From the UHGV virus genome UHGV-1976595: a stretch of 4,503 nt of DNA; one strand, given 5' to 3'. This stretch comes from a virus. The notes under the pieces are model-generated. The model worked only from the letters and a program-made list of their open reading frames with translations. It did no database searches and was not told the origin of the DNA. Positions 1 through 4,503 of this stretch are shown here, piece by piece. How positions within the stretch are numbered: position 1 is the first letter of the stretch; each line of letters starts with the position of its first letter. The position numbers and the translations under genes are program-made.

Positions 1-35
1 CCCCCTGTTTTTCCGAGTAACCCCTAGGAGGTAAT

Positions 36-155
36 ATGGCTCGTTCTCGCCGTCGTATGTCCAAGCGTTCTTCTCGTCGTTCGTTCCGTAAGTACGCAAA
101 GACGCATAAGCGAAACTTTAAAGCCCGTTCGATGCGTGGCGGTATTCGTCTTTGA
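36..155 (+). CDS. Small arginine/lysine-rich DNA-binding (packaging) protein, gokushovirus VP8 / microvirus J-like
   Basis: ATG at 36 preceded by AGGAGG (26-31) with a 4-nt spacer; 39 codons, stop TGA 153-155. Translation by hand: MARSRRRMSKRSSRRSFRKYAKTHKRNFKARSMRGGIRL, about 40 percent Arg/Lys, typical of the small DNA-condensing proteins of Microviridae. Too short to appear in the supplied ORF track. Family assignment is by composition, size and genome context only. Confidence 0.7.
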   Translation: MARSRRRMSKRSSRRSFRKYAKTHKRNFKARSMRGGIRL

Positions 156-166
156 TTGACAAAGTT

Positions 167-195
167 GATCGTAACGATCTACGATAATTATCGTA
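167..195. repeat. Two adjacent perfect palindromes built on ATCGTA half-sites: GATCGT-a-ACGATC (167-179) and TACGATAATTATCGTA (180-195)
   Basis: Read directly from the sequence. ATCGTA occurs at 168-173 and 190-195, and its reverse complement TACGAT at 180-185. Lies in the VP8-VP4 intergenic region just downstream of a perfect TTGACA hexamer (156-161). Function unknown; candidate operator, iteron or origin element. Confidence 0.6.
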
Positions 196-208
196 AGTCG
201 TTGTTTTT

Positions 209-236
209 GTTAAACTAAATATACATTATGCGCACC
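209..236 (-). other. dif-like Xer recombination site (candidate attP for XerC/XerD-mediated integration)
   Basis: The minus strand of 209-236 reads GGTGCGCATAA-TGTATA-TTTAGTTTAAC. Compared with E. coli dif (GGTGCGCATAA TGTATA TTATGTTAAAT, recalled from memory) the XerC arm matches 11/11, the central region 6/6 and the XerD arm 7/11. A conserved XerC arm with a degenerate XerD arm is the pattern described for phage and IMEX attachment sites. Confidence 0.6.
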
Positions 237-248
237 AAGGTGCGCATA
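227..248. repeat. Perfect 10-bp inverted repeat TATGCGCACC-aa-GGTGCGCATA (XerC-arm sequence duplicated in inverted orientation)
   Basis: Read directly: 227-236 is the exact reverse complement of 239-248, with a 2-nt spacer. The second copy (239-249, GGTGCGCATAC) matches the dif XerC arm at 10/11 positions in forward orientation. Confidence 0.85.
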
Positions 249-269
249 CGTGAATTATGGAGGTGTGTC

Positions 270-1133
270 ATGGCTTGTACCCGTCCGTTAAACGCGTACC
301 AGATGCCATCGGGGAAGATTTTTTTCACGCCGTCACGTGGCGCTAAATTCATTCAGTTGCCTTGCGGTCAGTGCATCGGTTGCCGTCTTGCCCATTCTCG
401 TGACTGGGCGACCCGCTGTGTTCATGAAGCCCACATGCACGATCACAATTGTTTTATCACCCTGACTTATTCGCCTGAGAATTTACCCGAAGGCGGAACT
501 CTCGTTCGTAAACATTTCACCGATTTTATGAAGCGTTTGCGTAAGGCTTTGTCTGTTGATGATATTTCAATTCGTTTTTTCGGCTGTGGTGAATATGGCT
601 CTAAATTAGAGCGACCGCATTATCATGCGATTATTTTTGGATATGATTTTCCGGATAAGACACTGCATAAAGCTGGAAGATTTAATTTATTTAGGTCTTC
701 GCTTCTTGAAAGATGCTGGACTTTTGGCTTTTCTGTTATTGCTGGCTTTAGCTTTGAGTCGGCTGCATATGTGGCGCGATACTGTGTTAAAAAAGTCACC
801 GGTTCCCGTTCAGAGGAGCATTATGGACATCGCCTACCCGAGTTTTCAGCTATGAGTAACAGGCCAGGAATTGGCTACGATTTTTTTATGGAGTATTACG
901 ATGACATAGTTAATTCAGATGCGTGTATTGGTCGTGGCGGTCGTCAGATAAAACCGCCCCGCTATTATGACAAGTTATTATCAGGCTGTGATTTGGAAAA
1001 GTTGCAGCAAAATAAAGAAAAGCGCCAGTTAAATGCTCAGGTATTAGACCCGTGGCGTTTGCAGGATTTAGATAAATTTAATCTGGTTAAATTCCAGCGA
1101 ATGATGAGGAAATTAGAAAATGGCTCACTCTGA
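270..1133 (+). CDS. Replication initiation protein, HUH rolling-circle endonuclease (gokushovirus VP4 / microvirus gpA-like)
   Basis: ORF 228..1133 in the supplied track. I place the start at ATG 270 (MACTRPLNAYQ...) because GGAGG at 259-263 sits 6 nt upstream, whereas ATG 228 has no Shine-Dalgarno and lies inside the dif-like motif. Motifs read in the translation: motif I FITLTY (453-470), HUH motif HYH in PHYHAIIF (618-626), and the twin-tyrosine catalytic motif YVARYCVKK (768-794, Tyr codons at 768 and 780), closely resembling the active-site region of phiX174 gpA. A Cys/His-rich segment CGQCIGC...RCVHEAHMHDHNC spans 363-452. Stop TGA 1131-1133. Confidence 0.9.
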   Translation: MACTRPLNAYQMPSGKIFFTPSRGAKFIQLPCGQCIGCRLAHSRDWATRCVHEAHMHDHNCFITLTYSPENLPEGGTLVRKHFTDFMKRLRKALSVDDISIRFFGCGEYGSKLERPHYHAIIFGYDFPDKTLHKAGRFNLFRSSLLERCWTFGFSVIAGFSFESAAYVARYCVKKVTGSRSEEHYGHRLPEFSAMSNRPGIGYDFFMEYYDDIVNSDACIGRGGRQIKPPRYYDKLLSGCDLEKLQQNKEKRQLNAQVLDPWRLQDLDKFNLVKFQRMMRKLENGSL

Positions 1134-1389
1134 TGCAGTTTATGTATTTCACGACAAGCTGATTAATGCTGATGTTTATATGTTTATGGCTCAGCATGAT
1201 GGTATTGCGAAAGGTCAATTGCATGCGTTTTGTAACCGCATGCAGCGTACTGATTTTGCGTTGTATCGCGTAACTTCGTTTGATTTTGAGGGTGAACAGC
1301 TTATTCCGGTCAGCGTTGACCGTGTTTATGTTTGTGAAGCTACTCCGGCCTTTCTGAAGGATTCTGAAAATGCGTACATCGAAGCGTAA
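1120..1389 (+). CDS. Small protein, gokushovirus VP5-like (assignment by position and size only)
   Basis: ATG 1120 with GAGGA at 1106-1110; 89 aa; overlaps the end of the rep gene by 14 nt and the next gene by 20 nt, typical microvirus gene packing. No diagnostic motif recognised. In the same strand and operon-like array as the other genes. Confidence 0.5.
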   Translation: MAHSDAVYVFHDKLINADVYMFMAQHDGIAKGQLHAFCNRMQRTDFALYRVTSFDFEGEQLIPVSVDRVYVCEATPAFLKDSENAYIEA

Positions 1390-1879
1390 GTTCCATACCC
1401 GCTATGACCCGCCACCGTCGCCCGGCATCGAGTTCAAAGAACCCACGATGACCCAGCAGCATTTCCGCGATGAGTGCGACATCAATAAGATTGTTGAGCG
1501 TGCGATAAGAACGGGAGACACGACCGTGTTTACCAGTACTCAACGTGCTGAATTTTACGATGCATCCGCGATTACCGATTATGTGGACGCAATGGCTTTA
1601 ATTGACGACGTTAACGACGACTTTAATAGCCTGCCGTCCGCTACTCGCGCGATGTTTGGTAATAACGTTAAACAGTACGTTGAATTCATGAGTGATCCGG
1701 CGAACTGGGATAAAGCCCGTGAGCTTGGATTGTTGAGCGGCGGAGAGGTTTCGGCGACCGAACCGAAGGTTCGCGAGTCGGAACCTGCTCCGGCGTCCCC
1801 GCGGGAGCGTTCCGGTGCTGATGTGAATAAAGCATCAAATGCGGGTTCTGAACCCGCGAAACCTGCAGACGGCTCCTGA
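1370..1879 (+). CDS. Putative internal scaffolding protein (gokushovirus VP3-like), with a low-complexity Pro/Ser/Glu/Ala-rich C-terminal tail
   Basis: ATG 1370 with GAAGGA at 1355-1360; 169 aa; stop TGA 1877-1879. An alternative internal start at ATG 1448 (MTQQHFR...) has no Shine-Dalgarno. Size and position immediately upstream of the major capsid gene fit a scaffold protein, but the assignment is by synteny and size, not by a recognised motif. Confidence 0.5.
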   Translation: MRTSKRKFHTRYDPPPSPGIEFKEPTMTQQHFRDECDINKIVERAIRTGDTTVFTSTQRAEFYDASAITDYVDAMALIDDVNDDFNSLPSATRAMFGNNVKQYVEFMSDPANWDKARELGLLSGGEVSATEPKVRESEPAPASPRERSGADVNKASNAGSEPAKPADGS

Positions 1880-1887
1880 CCCTGCAG

Positions 1888-1924
1888 CCTGGCACAGTGC
1901 CCTACTTGATGTAACTGTGCCAGG
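1888..1924. repeat. Stem-loop: 11-bp perfect inverted repeat CCTGGCACAGT / ACTGTGCCAGG with a 15-nt loop
   Basis: Read directly: 1888-1898 is the exact reverse complement of 1914-1924. Located in the VP3-VP1 intergenic region, 9 nt after the VP3 stop. Not followed by a T-run on the + strand. Confidence 0.85.
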
Positions 1925-1936
1925 TGACACCGAAAC

Positions 1937-1964
1937 TTACAGGCGGCTCCCACGAAGCCTGTAA
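1937..1964. repeat. Stem-loop: 8-bp perfect inverted repeat TTACAGGC / GCCTGTAA with a 12-nt loop
   Basis: Read directly: 1937-1944 is the reverse complement of 1957-1964. Followed by AAAAA on the + strand, so it is not a + strand intrinsic terminator. Confidence 0.8.
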
Positions 1965-1968
1965 AAAG

Positions 1969-1997
1969 GTGTCAGTTTATACAGTGGTTTGTATAGT
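1969..1997 (+). promoter_or_regulatory. Candidate sigma70-type promoter for the major capsid gene: -35 GTGTCA (1969-1974), 17-bp spacer, -10 TATAGT (1992-1997)
   Basis: Hexamers match the consensus at 4/6 and 5/6 with optimal 17-bp spacing; the predicted start is about 20 nt upstream of the VP1 ATG, followed by a G-rich Shine-Dalgarno (GAGGGGGG, 2014-2021). Pattern match only. Confidence 0.3.
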
Positions 1998-2024
1998 ATT
2001 TAAACAATTCCCTGAGGGGGGTTT

Positions 2025-3704
2025 ATGAGTAAATTCGGTCGTAAAGTACCTAGTAATGCAAAAAGTCAGCATAATTTTTCAGTAATCCCGAGTGCTAATA
2101 TTCAGCGTTCGGTCTTTAACCGTAGTTCTGGTTATAAAACCACCTTTGACGCTGGTTATTTGATTCCCGTGTTTCTGGATGAGGCTTTGCCGGGTGATAC
2201 GTTCCACCTTAAAACGAGTGTTCTCGCGCGTCTTTCCACGCCCGTGGTTCCTTTCATGGATAATCTACGTCTGGATATTCAGTATTTTTCTGTACCTTAT
2301 CGCCTCGTCTGGGATAACTGGCAGAAATTCAACGGAGAACAGAAGAACCCTGGTGATTCTACGGATTATTTGATTCCGCAGATTACAGCCCCTGCTGGCG
2401 GTTTCCCTGTTGGCTCTCTTGCCGATTATTTTGGTGTTCCTACAGGTGTCGAAGGTATCAGCGTAAGCGCCCTGCCGTTCCGCGCTTATAACCTGATTTA
2501 TAACGAGTGGTATCGTGACGAAAACCTGATTAATTCCGCCCCGCTTCCGCTTGGCGATGAGACGGAAACAGGTCTCGCAAATTTCCCGCTGCGTAAGCGT
2601 GCCAAGCGTCATGATTACTTCACAAGTGCCCTTCCGTGGCCTCAGAAAGGCGAAGGTGTTGAGATTGGTTTAGGCGTTCCGCCGTCGTACTCGTTGAATT
2701 ATCCGGAATATCCGGATGGTTTAGCGTTCTTTACGCAGTCTTATGGCGCCGGCGGCCAGACTGTTGCTGGTACGGGCTATATTGCCCGTAGTGGTCTTGA
2801 CGCCGATACAGGTCTCTATTTGAGCGGTGGCCTTCAGAATGGTATTAACTGGCCTGAATCTCCTGTTCAGGGACGTTATGACGTTATTTCCGGTTTCCTT
2901 CCGGGCAAACCTCCGGTTACTTTGGAAAAGACAGGTGGTGAAGTTGTTGACAATCTCACGATTAACTCATTGCGTCAGGCGTTCCAGCTTCAGCGCCTGC
3001 TTGAGCGTGATGCTCGCGGTGGTACGCGATACATTGAGATTATTCGCAGTCATTTTGGCGTCATTTCTCCTGATGCCCGTGTTCAGCGTCCTGAGTATCT
3101 TGGCTCTGGTTCGTTCGATATAAATATCAATCCCGTTCTTCAGAACTCTGCGACTACCGATGCCAGCCCACAAGGTAACCTCGCAGCTTATGGTGTTTCC
3201 GGTGGTGTTAACCGTGGTTTTTCACATTCTTTTGTGGAGCACTGTTTTGTCATTGGTCTTGTATCTGTCCGTGCAGATTTGACCTATCAGCAAGGCATCC
3301 CGCGCATGTTCTCCCGTCAGACCCGCTTTGATTTCTACTGGCCTGCACTGGCCCACCTGGGCGAACAGGCTATTCTTAACAAGGAGATTTATGCGCAAGG
3401 CAACGCTAAAGATGATGAAGTCTTTGGCTATCAGGAACGTTACGCGGAGTACCGCTATCGTCCATCCCAGATTACTGGTAAATTACGTTCCACAGACCCG
3501 CAATCCCTCGATGTGTGGCATTTAGCCCAGCGGTTCGACTCTCTGCCCGCATTGAATCAGGAGTTCATCGAAGAGAATCCACCGATGAGTCGTGTTCTGG
3601 CCGTTCAGGACGAGCCTCAGTTCATTCTGGATGCATTCTTTGACCTGAAATGTGTGCGGCCTATGCCAGTTTATTCAGTACCCGGTCTTATTGACCATTT
3701 TTAA
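2025..3704 (+). CDS. Major capsid protein (gokushovirus VP1 / microvirus F-like)
   Basis: 559-aa ORF. ATG 2025 follows GAGGGGGG (2014-2021); stop TAA 3702-3704. The N-terminal region (...SVIPSANIQRSVFNRSSGYKTTFDAGYLIPVFLDEALPGDTF...) matches the conserved N-terminal signature of gokushovirus major capsid proteins as I recall it from Chlamydia phage and related VP1s. Its length fits a gokushovirus VP1 with the large surface insertion. Confidence 0.92.
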   Translation: MSKFGRKVPSNAKSQHNFSVIPSANIQRSVFNRSSGYKTTFDAGYLIPVFLDEALPGDTFHLKTSVLARLSTPVVPFMDNLRLDIQYFSVPYRLVWDNWQKFNGEQKNPGDSTDYLIPQITAPAGGFPVGSLADYFGVPTGVEGISVSALPFRAYNLIYNEWYRDENLINSAPLPLGDETETGLANFPLRKRAKRHDYFTSALPWPQKGEGVEIGLGVPPSYSLNYPEYPDGLAFFTQSYGAGGQTVAGTGYIARSGLDADTGLYLSGGLQNGINWPESPVQGRYDVISGFLPGKPPVTLEKTGGEVVDNLTINSLRQAFQLQRLLERDARGGTRYIEIIRSHFGVISPDARVQRPEYLGSGSFDININPVLQNSATTDASPQGNLAAYGVSGGVNRGFSHSFVEHCFVIGLVSVRADLTYQQGIPRMFSRQTRFDFYWPALAHLGEQAILNKEIYAQGNAKDDEVFGYQERYAEYRYRPSQITGKLRSTDPQSLDVWHLAQRFDSLPALNQEFIEENPPMSRVLAVQDEPQFILDAFFDLKCVRPMPVYSVPGLIDHF

Positions 3705-3717
3705 AACCCAACTCTTT

Positions 3718-3740
3718 GGCCTCTTCGGAGGCCTTTTTTT
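3718..3740 (+). terminator. Rho-independent terminator: GGCCTC-TTCG-GAGGCC followed by TTTTTTT
   Basis: 6-bp GC-rich stem (3718-3723 / 3728-3733), UUCG tetraloop (3724-3727) and a 7-T run (3734-3740), 14 nt after the VP1 stop and immediately before the VP2 ribosome-binding site. Confidence 0.75.
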
Positions 3741-3754
3741 CATGAGGTGAAATT

Positions 3755-4503
3755 ATGTGGGGAGCAATTGCAGGTGCTGTAGGTTCCGTTGCCGGTTCTC
3801 TTCTTGGTGCCCACTCTGCCCAGCAGAACGCCGCTCAGGCGAACAAGTTAACGATGGATTTGGCCAAAAACGGTATGCAGTACCGCGTACAGGATTTGCG
3901 AAAAGCAGGTCTTAACCCGATTCTGGCCGTTAATGGTTCCGGTGGTCTTGGTTCCGTCAGTTCTTCCGGTATTCAGCAGGCTGCCCCTGCCGATTATTCT
4001 GGTGCGGTTAACTCTGCCGTTGCCGCGTTCGACGCTCTGACGAAGCGTGAGCAGCAAAAGGTTGCCCGTGAAGGCATTGAGTCTCAGATTGCGTTACAAC
4101 GTAACCAGATTGCGAATAGCGCGGCTGATGTGCGTCTTAAAACGGCTCAGGCTGACCAGGCTATCCAGAGTGCCGATAACATGCGATCGCAGTCGAATCT
4201 GATTAATCAGCAGGTTTTGACCGAGGCTTCTCGTCGTGCCAATATTGAAGCACAGACAGGCCTCAGTTCTGCGCAGCGGATTAGAACACAGTATCAAACT
4301 GTTCAGGACAAGGTTCTGGCTGATTATTTGAATACACCGACTGGTGCTCAATCACTTAAGGTTAATTATGACTCTCAAGGGAAAGGGTTTGTCGGACAAG
4401 GTAATGCGATTGGTAGTTGGTTACGTCGTATTTCAGGTCTTGATGGCTTTGGCTTTCGCGATTCTAATAGTGCTAAGTCCGTAAACCAAAGGGGGGATTC
4501 TTC
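3755..4503 (+). CDS. DNA pilot / minor capsid protein (gokushovirus VP2-like), 3'-partial in this window
   Basis: ATG 3755 preceded by GAGGTGA (3744-3750). The frame stays open to the window end: 249 codons plus 2 nt by hand translation. It is absent from the supplied ORF track because it has no in-window stop. The N-terminus MWGAIAGAVGSVAGSLLGA is Gly/Ala-rich and hydrophobic, followed by ...RKAGLNPILA... and a long Gln/Ala-rich, probably helical, region, as in microvirus pilot proteins. If the genome is circular the frame continues into positions 1-34 and stops at TAA 32-34, giving 260 aa. Confidence 0.85.
   Translation, partial: MWGAIAGAVGSVAGSLLGAHSAQQNAAQANKLTMDLAKNGMQYRVQDLRKAGLNPILAVNGSGGLGSVSSSGIQQAAPADYSGAVNSAVAAFDALTKREQQKVAREGIESQIALQRNQIANSAADVRLKTAQADQAIQSADNMRSQSNLINQQVLTEASRRANIEAQTGLSSAQRIRTQYQTVQDKVLADYLNTPTGAQSLKVNYDSQGKGFVGQGNAIGSWLRRISGLDGFGFRDSNSAKSVNQRGDS

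What the first reader, a model, noticed from the sequence alone, without database searches (positions are those of the whole stretch)
1..4503. Window appears to be a complete circular genome linearised inside VP2
The pilot-protein ORF starting at 3755 has no stop before the window end. If position 4503 is joined to position 1, the same frame continues for 11 codons (S-P-L-F-F-R-V-T-P-R-R) and stops at TAA 32-34, one nucleotide before the ATG of the small basic protein at 36, whose AGGAGG Shine-Dalgarno is then embedded in the VP2 tail. Such precise abutment is typical of microvirus gene packing and is unlikely by chance. 4,503 nt with six genes fits a gokushovirus-sized genome. There is no terminal redundancy between the window ends.
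Basis: inference. Interest (0 to 1): 0.55.

Follow-up and report, generated by a model that had tools for sequence, protein, structure and literature searches.

The report
Complete circular enterogokushovirus genome, cut in VP2

Summary
The ORF from ATG 3755 runs off the end. Joined 4503->1 it reads ...SSPLFFRVTPRR and stops at TAA 32-34, giving 260 aa. That stop lies one base before the VP8 ATG at 36, and AGGAGG sits at 26-31. There is no terminal redundancy.

All three frames entering position 1 stop before base 35.

The decisive evidence is a metagenome scaffold, L004, that differs by one SNP. It carries the same phage integrated at an E. coli dif site and reads straight across the 4503->1 join. 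Its phage unit is exactly 4,503 bp. Other E. coli prophages at 88-90% identity also span the join and keep the same VP2 tail.

The window holds a single hybrid dif-like site (209-236) between VP8 and VP4, not at its ends. That is the excised, circular (attP) arrangement.

All six genes match Enterogokushovirus (Kirchberger and Ochman 2020). Identity to EC6098 is 91.7%. This is a new member of a known kind, of low interest.

The one thing worth a follow-up is a covarying hairpin at 1888-1931. Its loop carries the phiX174 origin nick motif ACTTG|AT, it occurs once in hundreds of gokushovirus genomes, and it may be their viral-strand origin.

The parts
3755..4503 (+). VP2 (DNA pilot / minor capsid protein), 5' part: codons 1-249 plus the first two bases of codon 250
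   Evidence: Open frame to the window end. PHROG 8693 'pilot protein for DNA ejection', E=2.4e-19. Aligns along its whole length with VP2 of EC6098 and of E. coli prophages.
1..34 (+). VP2, 3' part: third base of codon 250, ten further codons (PLFFRVTPRR) and stop TAA at 32-34
   Evidence: Frame continuity. Identical and contiguous in L004; conserved in L002 and L003.
26..31 (+). AGGAGG Shine-Dalgarno for VP8, inside the last two codons of VP2
   Evidence: Read from the sequence. (A/C)GGAGG-TAA-(T)T-ATG is kept in eight relatives; mar4 has GGAGG-TAG followed by an extra small ORF.
36..155 (+). VP8, a 39-aa arginine-rich putative DNA-binding (J-like) protein
   Evidence: ORF. PHROG 10695, E=1.6e-10. 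Identical protein in EC6098 (annotated vp8) and in five prophage loci.
156..185 (+). Best sigma-70-like promoter match in the window (TTGACA-18-TACGAT), directly after VP8 and upstream of the dif site and VP4
   Evidence: Consensus scan, 10 of 12 positions. A consensus match only; function not tested.
209..236 (+). 28-bp dif-like site in the circular (attP) form: degenerate XerD arm GTTAAACTAAA (209-219), spacer TATACA (220-225), XerC arm TTATGCGCACC (226-236)
   Evidence: The only match in the window; 0 of 200 shuffles gave any match. Equals the right-end dif of prophages L004 and L002, here joined to the phage sequence that follows their left-end dif. EC6098 annotates the homologous 28 bp as 'dif-motif'.
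270..1133 (+). VP4, rolling-circle replication initiator (287 aa). An upstream in-frame ATG at 228, inside the XerC arm, would give 301 aa
   Evidence: Pfam PF23343, E=6e-21. PHROG 942, E=1e-114. GGAGGTGTGTCATGGCTTGTAC is conserved at the 270 start in all nine related loci, whereas the sequence upstream is not.
1120..1389 (+). VP5, non-structural protein (89 aa)
   Evidence: Weak Pfam PF20577 Phage_ORF5 hit, E=4e-4, below the curated cut-off. Same position and length as vp5 of EC6098.
1370..1879 (+). VP3, internal scaffolding protein (169 aa)
   Evidence: Pfam PF09675 Chlamy_scaf, E=6.5e-35. The exact protein is found on L004 and L005.
1888..1931 (+). Conserved hairpin: stem 1888-1898 / 1914-1924, loop GCCCTACTTGATGTA, followed by invariant TGACACC (1925-1931). 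Candidate viral-strand origin, with the putative nick between G1908 and A1909
   Evidence: See Noticed in passing.
2025..3704 (+). VP1, major capsid protein (559 aa)
   Evidence: Pfam PF02305 Phage_F, E=6.6e-185. PHROG 514.
3718..3740 (+). Intrinsic-terminator-like hairpin GGCCTCTTCGGAGGCC followed by T7, between VP1 and VP2
   Evidence: Consensus scan. This stretch also caused the only, sub-threshold Rfam hit.

Best explanation
The window is exactly one copy, circularly permuted, of the 4,503-nt genome of a temperate Enterogokushovirus (Microviridae, Gokushovirinae) of Escherichia. It is written in the excised or replicative (attP) arrangement and linearised between the second and third base of VP2 codon 250.

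Shown here:
- The six-gene set, all on one strand.
- The continuity of VP2 across the join.
- The unit length.
- The single internal hybrid dif site.
- The existence of the same phage integrated at an E. coli dif site.

Inferred from the published biology of EC6098 and of Microviridae:
- The packaged molecule is the + (coding) strand as a ssDNA circle.
- The host converts it to a double-stranded replicative form.
- VP4 nicks a viral-strand origin and drives rolling-circle synthesis. The origin is probably the hairpin at 1888-1931, whose loop carries the phiX174 nick motif.
- VP8 condenses the DNA into procapsids built from VP1, VP3 and VP2.
- Host XerC/XerD recombine the phage dif-like site (209-236) with chromosomal dif. 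This yields a prophage ordered dif-VP4-VP5-VP3-VP1-VP2-VP8-dif, and the reaction is reversible.
- The VP2 stop and VP8 start lie one base apart, with the VP8 ribosome-binding site inside the last two VP2 codons. This is most simply read as translational coupling of a small, abundant DNA-binding protein to the upstream structural gene.
For: Family assignment: megablast gives EC6098 at 91.7% identity over 90% of the window, and microvirus mar4 at 87%. Seven E. coli chromosomes carry a prophage at 86.6-89.9% identity, next to hipA.

Genes: Pfam and PHROG matches for VP1, VP3, VP4, VP2 and VP8, and a weak one for VP5. The order is the same as annotated in EC6098.

Junction:
- A 600-nt probe across 4503->1 aligns as one piece with L002 (538 columns, 88%) and L003.
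- L004 matches the window in two abutting pieces, 28-4321 and 4322-4558.
- After rotation the two differ at one phage position (2899), plus three positions that are the host-versus-phage XerD arm.
- L004 has a called 260-aa VP2 and then VP8 one base later.

VP2 tail: SSPLFFRVTPRR is identical in L004 and L003; L002 has SSPLIFRVTPRR.

Circular arrangement:
- The window has the phage XerD-like arm, spacer and XerC arm followed by VP4-side phage sequence.
- L004 and L002 have a near-canonical E. coli dif plus host flank on the left, and the phage dif plus host flank on the right.
- The site is unique in the window and not expected by chance.
- mar4, a circular virome genome, has the same VP2-VP8-dif-VP4 order.

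Literature (PMC7062461): six-gene order, 4,316-4,692 bp size range, flanking dif motifs, XerC/XerD-dependent reversible integration, and circular phage DNA detected by PCR across the phage dif.
Against: No reads or assembly graph are available, so physical circularity of the sampled molecule is not demonstrated.

No public contig was found that carries this exact sequence in circular form. Junction and end patterns gave zero hits in IMG/VR, JGI metagenomes and GTDB genomes. The only attP-pattern hit, L142, has the length of EC6098 (4,526 bp) and is probably that genome, which was itself made by circularising a prophage.

The same string would also arise from a tandem prophage, or from in-silico circularisation of a prophage such as L004.

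The abutment argument alone is weak (about 1 in 3).

Translational coupling and the origin assignment are inferences.
Confidence: 0.9

Rival explanations
1. The sequence is a genuine one-unit genome, but it does not derive from a physical circle. It is either one repeat unit of a tandem prophage array at dif, or a prophage that was circularised computationally at its dif repeats and then rotated.
For: A prophage differing by one SNP exists (L004). The reference EC6098 genome was itself produced by circularising a prophage. Clean ends with no overlap suggest post-processing.
Against: All seven E. coli genomes with a match have a single copy, with no tandem arrays. Circular forms of this phage group are documented experimentally and in a virome (mar4). 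The start point inside VP2 is not what att-based circularisation would produce. Biologically the sequence would be the same genome either way.
Confidence: 0.08
2. The window is an integrated prophage fragment cut out of a bacterial chromosome, and the VP2/VP8 abutment across the ends is coincidental.
For: Close relatives are prophages. All three frames stop before base 35, so an apparent abutment is cheap to obtain.
Against: No host sequence is present at either end. The dif site is internal and in the attP form. In every prophage examined, VP2 and VP8 are contiguous and the prophage ends lie between VP8 and VP4.
Confidence: 0.01
3. The window is an incomplete or mis-joined assembly, with bases missing or duplicated at the ends, so that the rejoined VP2 is an artefact.
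For: The break lies inside a G6...C6 hairpin (GGGGGGATTCTTC|CCCCC), a type of sequence where coverage and assembly often fail.
Against: L004 has exactly the same bases across the join and the same unit length of 4,503. L002 and L003 align without a gap at the join. The rejoined tail is conserved at the protein level.
Confidence: 0.01

Closest known systems
Escherichia phage EC6098 (Enterogokushovirus EC6098; MT185428 / NC_048874; Kirchberger and Ochman 2020, PMC7062461)
   Same: Same six genes in the same order. Identical VP8. Same type of dif motif next to the VP4 start. Same VP3-VP1 intergenic region (97.9% identity). Same GGAGG-TAA-ATG packing of VP2 and VP8. Overall 91.7% nucleotide identity over 90% of the window.
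   Different: EC6098 is 4,526 nt and its record starts at the dif motif. Its VP2 N-terminus and C-terminal roughly 60 residues differ (tail ...QFQQQLINNYRR, against ...PLFFRVTPRR here). Overall identity is below the 95% used in that paper to delimit clades.
ENA metagenome scaffold ERZ28595803 LEEK22-1 scaffold_7355 (L004), and gokushovirus prophages at dif in E. coli E9, tcmA_3, C41, 06-00048, C5 and others
   Same: L004 is the same phage, with one SNP in 4,503 nt. E9 and tcmA_3 share the PLFFRVTPRR-type VP2 tail. All sit between the fimA-side flank and hipA at the chromosomal dif.
   Different: They are integrated: two dif copies, the left one at most one base from canonical E. coli dif and the right one the phage copy, plus host flanks. 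The window has one hybrid site and no host DNA.
Microvirus mar4 (MZ089750), a circular virome genome from marmot faeces
   Same: A circular record with the order VP1-VP2-VP8-dif-VP4-VP5-VP3. 87% identity over 86% of the window.
   Different: An extra 33-codon ORF lies between VP2 and VP8. The XerD arm differs, as does the sequence downstream of the dif site.
Classical Gokushovirinae (Chlamydia phage Chp2, Bdellovibrio phage phiMH2K, Spiroplasma phage SpV4)
   Same: Homologous VP1, VP3 and VP4 (Pfam families) and a comparable 4.4-4.6 kb size. Chp2 also has a hairpin after VP3 with CTACTTGAT in its loop.
   Different: Different gene order. They are lytic and have no dif motif according to the literature. 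The exact hairpin motif was not found by regex in phiMH2K or SpV4.
dif-integrating elements that use host XerC/XerD and carry no recombinase of their own (IMEX, e.g. CTXphi and VGJphi of Vibrio; from my own knowledge)
   Same: No recombinase gene of its own, a dif-like site, and integration at chromosomal dif.
   Different: An icosahedral microvirus, not a filamentous inovirus. Integration is reported as reversible and from the double-stranded form.

Membership tests
Enterogokushovirus (Gokushovirinae, Microviridae) | Conserved six-gene arrangement VP4-VP5-VP3-VP1-VP2-VP8 on one strand | tested here: met
   ORFs. Pfam and PHROG matches. Same order as the EC6098 annotation. Definition taken from PMC7062461.
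Enterogokushovirus (Gokushovirinae, Microviridae) | Genome or prophage length of about 4.3-4.7 kb | tested here: met
   4,503 nt. The published range is 4,316-4,692 bp.
Enterogokushovirus (Gokushovirinae, Microviridae) | 28-bp dif-like motif with a conserved XerC arm and a variable XerD arm, between VP8 and VP4 | tested here: met
   Window 209-236. Spacer and XerC arm are identical to E. coli dif; there are four mismatches, all in the XerD arm.
Enterogokushovirus (Gokushovirinae, Microviridae) | Close sequence relationship to EC6098 and the enterobacterial prophage clade | tested here: met
   91.7% identity to EC6098, and 86.6-89.9% to seven E. coli prophages. No phylogenetic tree was built.
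Enterogokushovirus (Gokushovirinae, Microviridae) | Integration next to host dif, dependent on XerC/XerD | tested here: inconclusive
   The same phage (one SNP) is found integrated between E. coli dif flanks in L004. Dependence on XerC/XerD is known only from EC6098 experiments.
Enterogokushovirus (Gokushovirinae, Microviridae) | Circular ssDNA packaged in a T=1 icosahedral virion | not testable with these tools
   Requires particles, or strand-specific sequencing of encapsidated DNA.
Complete circular genome (assembly sense) | The end-to-start join is contiguous, with no gap or duplication, in an independent sequence | tested here: met
   L004 positions 4321/4322 correspond to window 4503/1. 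L002 and L003 align across the join without a gap.
Complete circular genome (assembly sense) | Every expected gene and cis element is present exactly once | tested here: met
   Six genes, one dif site, and one conserved hairpin of the kind found once per gokushovirus genome.
Complete circular genome (assembly sense) | Reads or PCR products bridging the join in the source sample | not testable with these tools
   No reads or assembly graph are available.
dif-integrating elements without their own recombinase (IMEX) | No self-encoded integrase, and a dif-like attachment site | tested here: met
   None of the six proteins matches a recombinase family. The dif-like site is at 209-236.
phiX174-type viral-strand origin (considered for the hairpin at 1888-1931 only) | Nick motif CAACTTG|ATA recognised by the HUH initiator | tested here: inconclusive
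   ACTTGAT and TAAC are shared with the annotated phiX174 origin. They are invariant in 113 aligned elements, although the retrieval pattern fixed most of those bases. Cleavage by VP4 was not tested. Unlike in phiX174, the motif sits in a hairpin loop in an intergenic region, not inside the initiator gene.

The most novel reading that the evidence does not exclude
The genome itself is ordinary, but it carries a 44-nt hairpin (1888-1931) that looks like the so far undescribed viral-strand rolling-circle origin of Gokushovirinae.

- The stem covaries and the loop is invariant (CTACTTGATGTAAC).
- The loop contains the phiX174 gene-A nick motif ACTTG|AT, and an invariant TGACACC follows.
- It occurs once per genome, on the coding strand, usually just after VP3.
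- It is present in at least 185 GenBank microviruses, at least 120 IMG/VR contigs, and in variant form in Chlamydia phage Chp2.

I found no mention of it in the searchable literature.

A second, weaker idea concerns the best promoter match (156-185). It lies upstream of attP, so integration at dif would separate it from VP4. That would give a repressor-free way of silencing replication in the lysogen.
Probability: 0.4. Interest if true: 0.5.

Novelty: new member of a known kind. Interest (0 to 1): 0.15.

Why it matters
For the finding itself, very little. It tells an annotator to treat the record as circular. VP2 should be annotated as join(3755..4503,1..34), 260 aa. The 209-236 site should be recognised as the phage attachment site rather than a prophage boundary.

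It adds one more lineage to the temperate E. coli gokushoviruses described in 2020. This lineage is about 92% identical to EC6098 and has the alternative VP2 C-terminus. The same phage is seen both integrated (L004) and in the circular arrangement.

The side observation could matter more. A defined origin hairpin would give a cis-element marker for orienting and completeness-checking the thousands of metagenomic gokushovirus genomes. It would also give a testable substrate for VP4.

Tried and rejected
- Exact-string scans for the last 33 nt and the first 40 nt of the window in IMG/VR found nothing.
- A junction-spanning pattern found nothing in GTDB genomes or JGI metagenomes.
- A circular-form attP pattern found nothing in JGI metagenomes, and in IMG/VR only a 4,526-bp contig that is probably EC6098. 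No independent public copy of the circular form was recovered.
- Exact-protein look-ups for VP1 and for the 301-aa VP4 found nothing. For VP1 this is explained by one SNP. For VP4 it is explained by the shorter 287-aa call used in public annotation.
- Rfam gave only a sub-threshold hit caused by the terminator-like hairpin after VP1.
- I considered whether the inverted XerC arm after the dif site (226-248) forms a CTXphi-like folded ssDNA attachment site. It is absent from L003, L008 and mar4, so it is not a family feature.
- A regex search for the hairpin motif in phiMH2K and SpV4 was negative. A variant was found in Chp2 only after folding its intergenic region.
- Literature searches for the loop motif returned nothing relevant. 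Subscription-only papers were not searchable.


Full report
**Observation.** The window was read in full and its ORFs listed.

- ATG 3755 opens a frame that reaches base 4503 without a stop.
- Translating the window joined to itself gives a 260-aa protein ending ...NQRGDSSPLFFRVTPRR, with TAA at 32-34.
- The next gene, a 39-aa arginine-rich protein, starts at ATG 36. AGGAGG occupies 26-31.
- No prefix equals a suffix, so there is no terminal redundancy.

Its probabilistic argument is weaker than stated. All three frames entering base 1 hit a stop before base 35 (TAA 18-20, TAG 25-27, TAA 32-34). A stop just before VP8 was therefore certain, and the exact abutment is roughly a one-in-three outcome.

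**What the sequence is.** Megablast against phage records finds Escherichia phage EC6098 at 91.7% identity over 90% of the window, and microvirus mar4 at 87%. Against complete E. coli genomes it finds seven single-copy chromosomal prophages at 86.6-89.9% identity. The five inspected all lie between a fimA-side flank and hipA.

EC6098 is annotated dif-motif, vp4, vp5, vp3, vp1, vp2, vp8. The window proteins match as follows:

| Protein | Match |
|---|---|
| VP1 | Pfam Phage_F, E=7e-185 |
| VP3 | Pfam Chlamy_scaf, E=7e-35 |
| VP4 | Pfam REP_ORF2-G2P, E=6e-21 |
| VP5 | Pfam Phage_ORF5, weak (E=4e-4) |
| VP2 | PHROG pilot protein, E=2e-19 |
| VP8 | PHROG 10695, E=2e-10 |

This is the six-gene, 4.3-4.7 kb, dif-flanked Enterogokushovirus group of Kirchberger and Ochman (PMC7062461).

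**The junction.** Relative to EC6098 and the prophages, the window is a rotation. It starts 35 nt before VP8 and ends inside VP2.

- A 600-nt probe spanning 4503->1 aligns as a single piece with the E. coli E9 prophage (538 columns, 88%) and with the tcmA_3 prophage.
- An exact-protein look-up with VP3 returned an ENA metagenome scaffold of 4,593 bp, L004.
- Window 210-4503 equals L004 28-4321, and window 1-237 equals L004 4322-4558. Bases 4503 and 1 are therefore neighbours there.
- After rotating L004 to the window's register, the two differ at position 2899 only. Three further differences are simply the host versus phage XerD arm. The unit length is exactly 4,503.
- The public gene call on L004 is a 260-aa VP2 followed one base later by a 39-aa VP8.
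- In a VP2 alignment the rejoined tail is identical in L004 and L003. It reads SSPLIFRVTPRR in L002. EC6098 and four others carry a second tail variant...QFQQQLINNYRR.
- In eight of these relatives the arrangement (A/C)GGAGG-TAA-(T)T-ATG is kept, so the packing is a family trait. mar4 is the exception, with GGAGG-TAG followed by an extra small ORF.

**Circular or integrated?** L004 and L002 show the integrated layout. On the left, a host flank is followed by a dif copy: canonical E. coli dif (ATTTAACATAATATACATTATGCGCACC) in L004, and one base off in L002. Phage VP4-side sequence follows. On the right, the phage end is followed by the phage dif (GTTAAACTAAATATACATTATGCGCACC) and then host flank.

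The window has the phage XerD-like arm, the spacer and the XerC arm, followed directly by the VP4-side phage sequence. That is the attP product expected for the excised or replicative circle. The site is unique in the window, and no match appeared in 200 shuffles. No host DNA is present.

mar4, deposited as a circular virome genome, has the same VP2-VP8-dif-VP4 order. Experimental evidence for circular and integrated forms and for XerC/XerD dependence exists for EC6098.

**What remains unproven.** I could not find this exact sequence in circular form in IMG/VR, JGI metagenomes or GTDB genomes. No reads are available. A tandem prophage or a computationally circularised prophage would give the same string. 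I put about 0.08 on that and about 0.9 on a genuine complete genome unit in circular arrangement.

**Mechanism.** Shown here: gene content, continuity, unit length, the attP arrangement, and the existence of an integrated twin.

Inferred from established Microviridae biology and:
- the packaged molecule is the + strand as a ssDNA circle;
- the host synthesises the complementary strand;
- VP4 drives rolling-circle replication;
- VP8 aids packaging into VP1/VP3/VP2 procapsids;
- integration at dif by XerC/XerD is reversible;
- VP8 is translationally coupled to VP2.

**Comparison and novelty.** This is a member of a known genus. It is below 95% identity to EC6098 and has the alternative VP2 C-terminus, so it is a new member of a known kind. 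Interest is low.

**Noticed in passing: a hairpin at 1888-1931.** The first megablast showed 44 nt at 1888-1931 matching otherwise unrelated microviruses at 95-98% identity.

- A sensitive blastn finds the element in 185 phage records. In most of the listed records it lies in unannotated sequence, and where checked it sits just after VP3.
- It is a hairpin. The stem is CCTGGCACAGT / ACTGTGCCAGG, the loop is GCCCTACTTGATGTA, and TGACACC follows.
Nearly all are of microvirus size (most 4-5 kb). There is one copy per genome, and 117 of 120 are on the coding strand.
- In an alignment of 113 distinct copies, 82.6% of cells pair, against 28-41% when the partner column is slid. Double changes are abundant, for example CG 62 / AU 33 / UA 8 / GC 7 at one pair.
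- The loop shares ACTTG|AT...TAAC with the annotated phiX174 viral-strand origin, CAACTTG|ATATTAATAAC.
- Chp2 has a variant hairpin with CTACTTGAT in its loop after VP3. phiMH2K and SpV4 did not match a simple regex.
- I found no description of it in the searchable literature.

The most economical reading is that it is the gokushovirus viral-strand origin. A complementary-strand priming signal is the main alternative. Its single presence also fits the 'complete genome' verdict.

Noticed in passing
window 1888-1931 (+), VP3-VP1 intergenic region: A hairpin conserved across Gokushovirinae. It has a covarying 8-11 bp stem, an invariant loop CTACTTGATGTAAC containing the phiX174 origin nick motif ACTTG|AT, and a following invariant TGACACC. 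It occurs once per genome on the coding strand in at least 185 GenBank microviruses and at least 120 IMG/VR contigs, with a variant in Chlamydia phage Chp2. It is a candidate viral-strand origin and was not found in the searchable literature.
   Followed up: partly
window 4491-4503 joined to 1-5 (GGGGGGATTCTTC|CCCCC): The linearisation point falls inside a G6-N4/6-C6 hairpin within the VP2 C-terminal coding region. The G6/C6 arms are kept in all eight related sequences aligned there, even though the flanking VP2 sequence is the most variable part of the genome and exists in two unrelated versions. It could be a cis element, a recombination boundary, or simply the conserved GG..PP peptide.
   Followed up: partly
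window 226-248: A perfect palindrome, TATGCGCACC-AA-GGTGCGCATA. The XerC arm of the dif site is followed immediately by an inverted copy of itself. It is present in the window, L002, L004, L006 and L007, and absent from L003, L008 and mar4. The scan also flags it as a minus-strand terminator-like hairpin. Its function is unknown.
   Followed up: partly
window 156-185 (+): The best sigma-70-like promoter match in the window (TTGACA-18-TACGAT) starts directly after the VP8 stop codon, upstream of the dif site and VP4. In the prophage arrangement it sits at the right end and points into the host hipA flank, while VP4 sits at the left end behind host sequence. Integration may therefore uncouple VP4 from its promoter. 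This is speculation and was not tested.
   Followed up: no
window 228 versus 270 (VP4 start): The longest VP4 ORF starts at an ATG inside the XerC arm (228; used in the EC6098 GenBank record). RefSeq and ENA gene calls use the ATG at 270. That start is preceded by GGAGG and lies in a 22-nt block conserved in all nine related loci, while the upstream stretch is not conserved. 270 is the more likely start.
   Followed up: yes
L009 (Microvirus mar4) 2533-2631: mar4 has an extra annotated 33-codon ORF inserted between VP2 and VP8. It is absent from the window and from the E. coli prophages.
   Followed up: no
window 1923-1974: The invariant GGTGACACC after the hairpin can pair with GGTGTCA about 40 nt downstream, enclosing a third small hairpin (ACAGGC...GCCTGT). 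Several unrelated microviruses also have a GGTGTC complement downstream of TGACACC.
   Followed up: no
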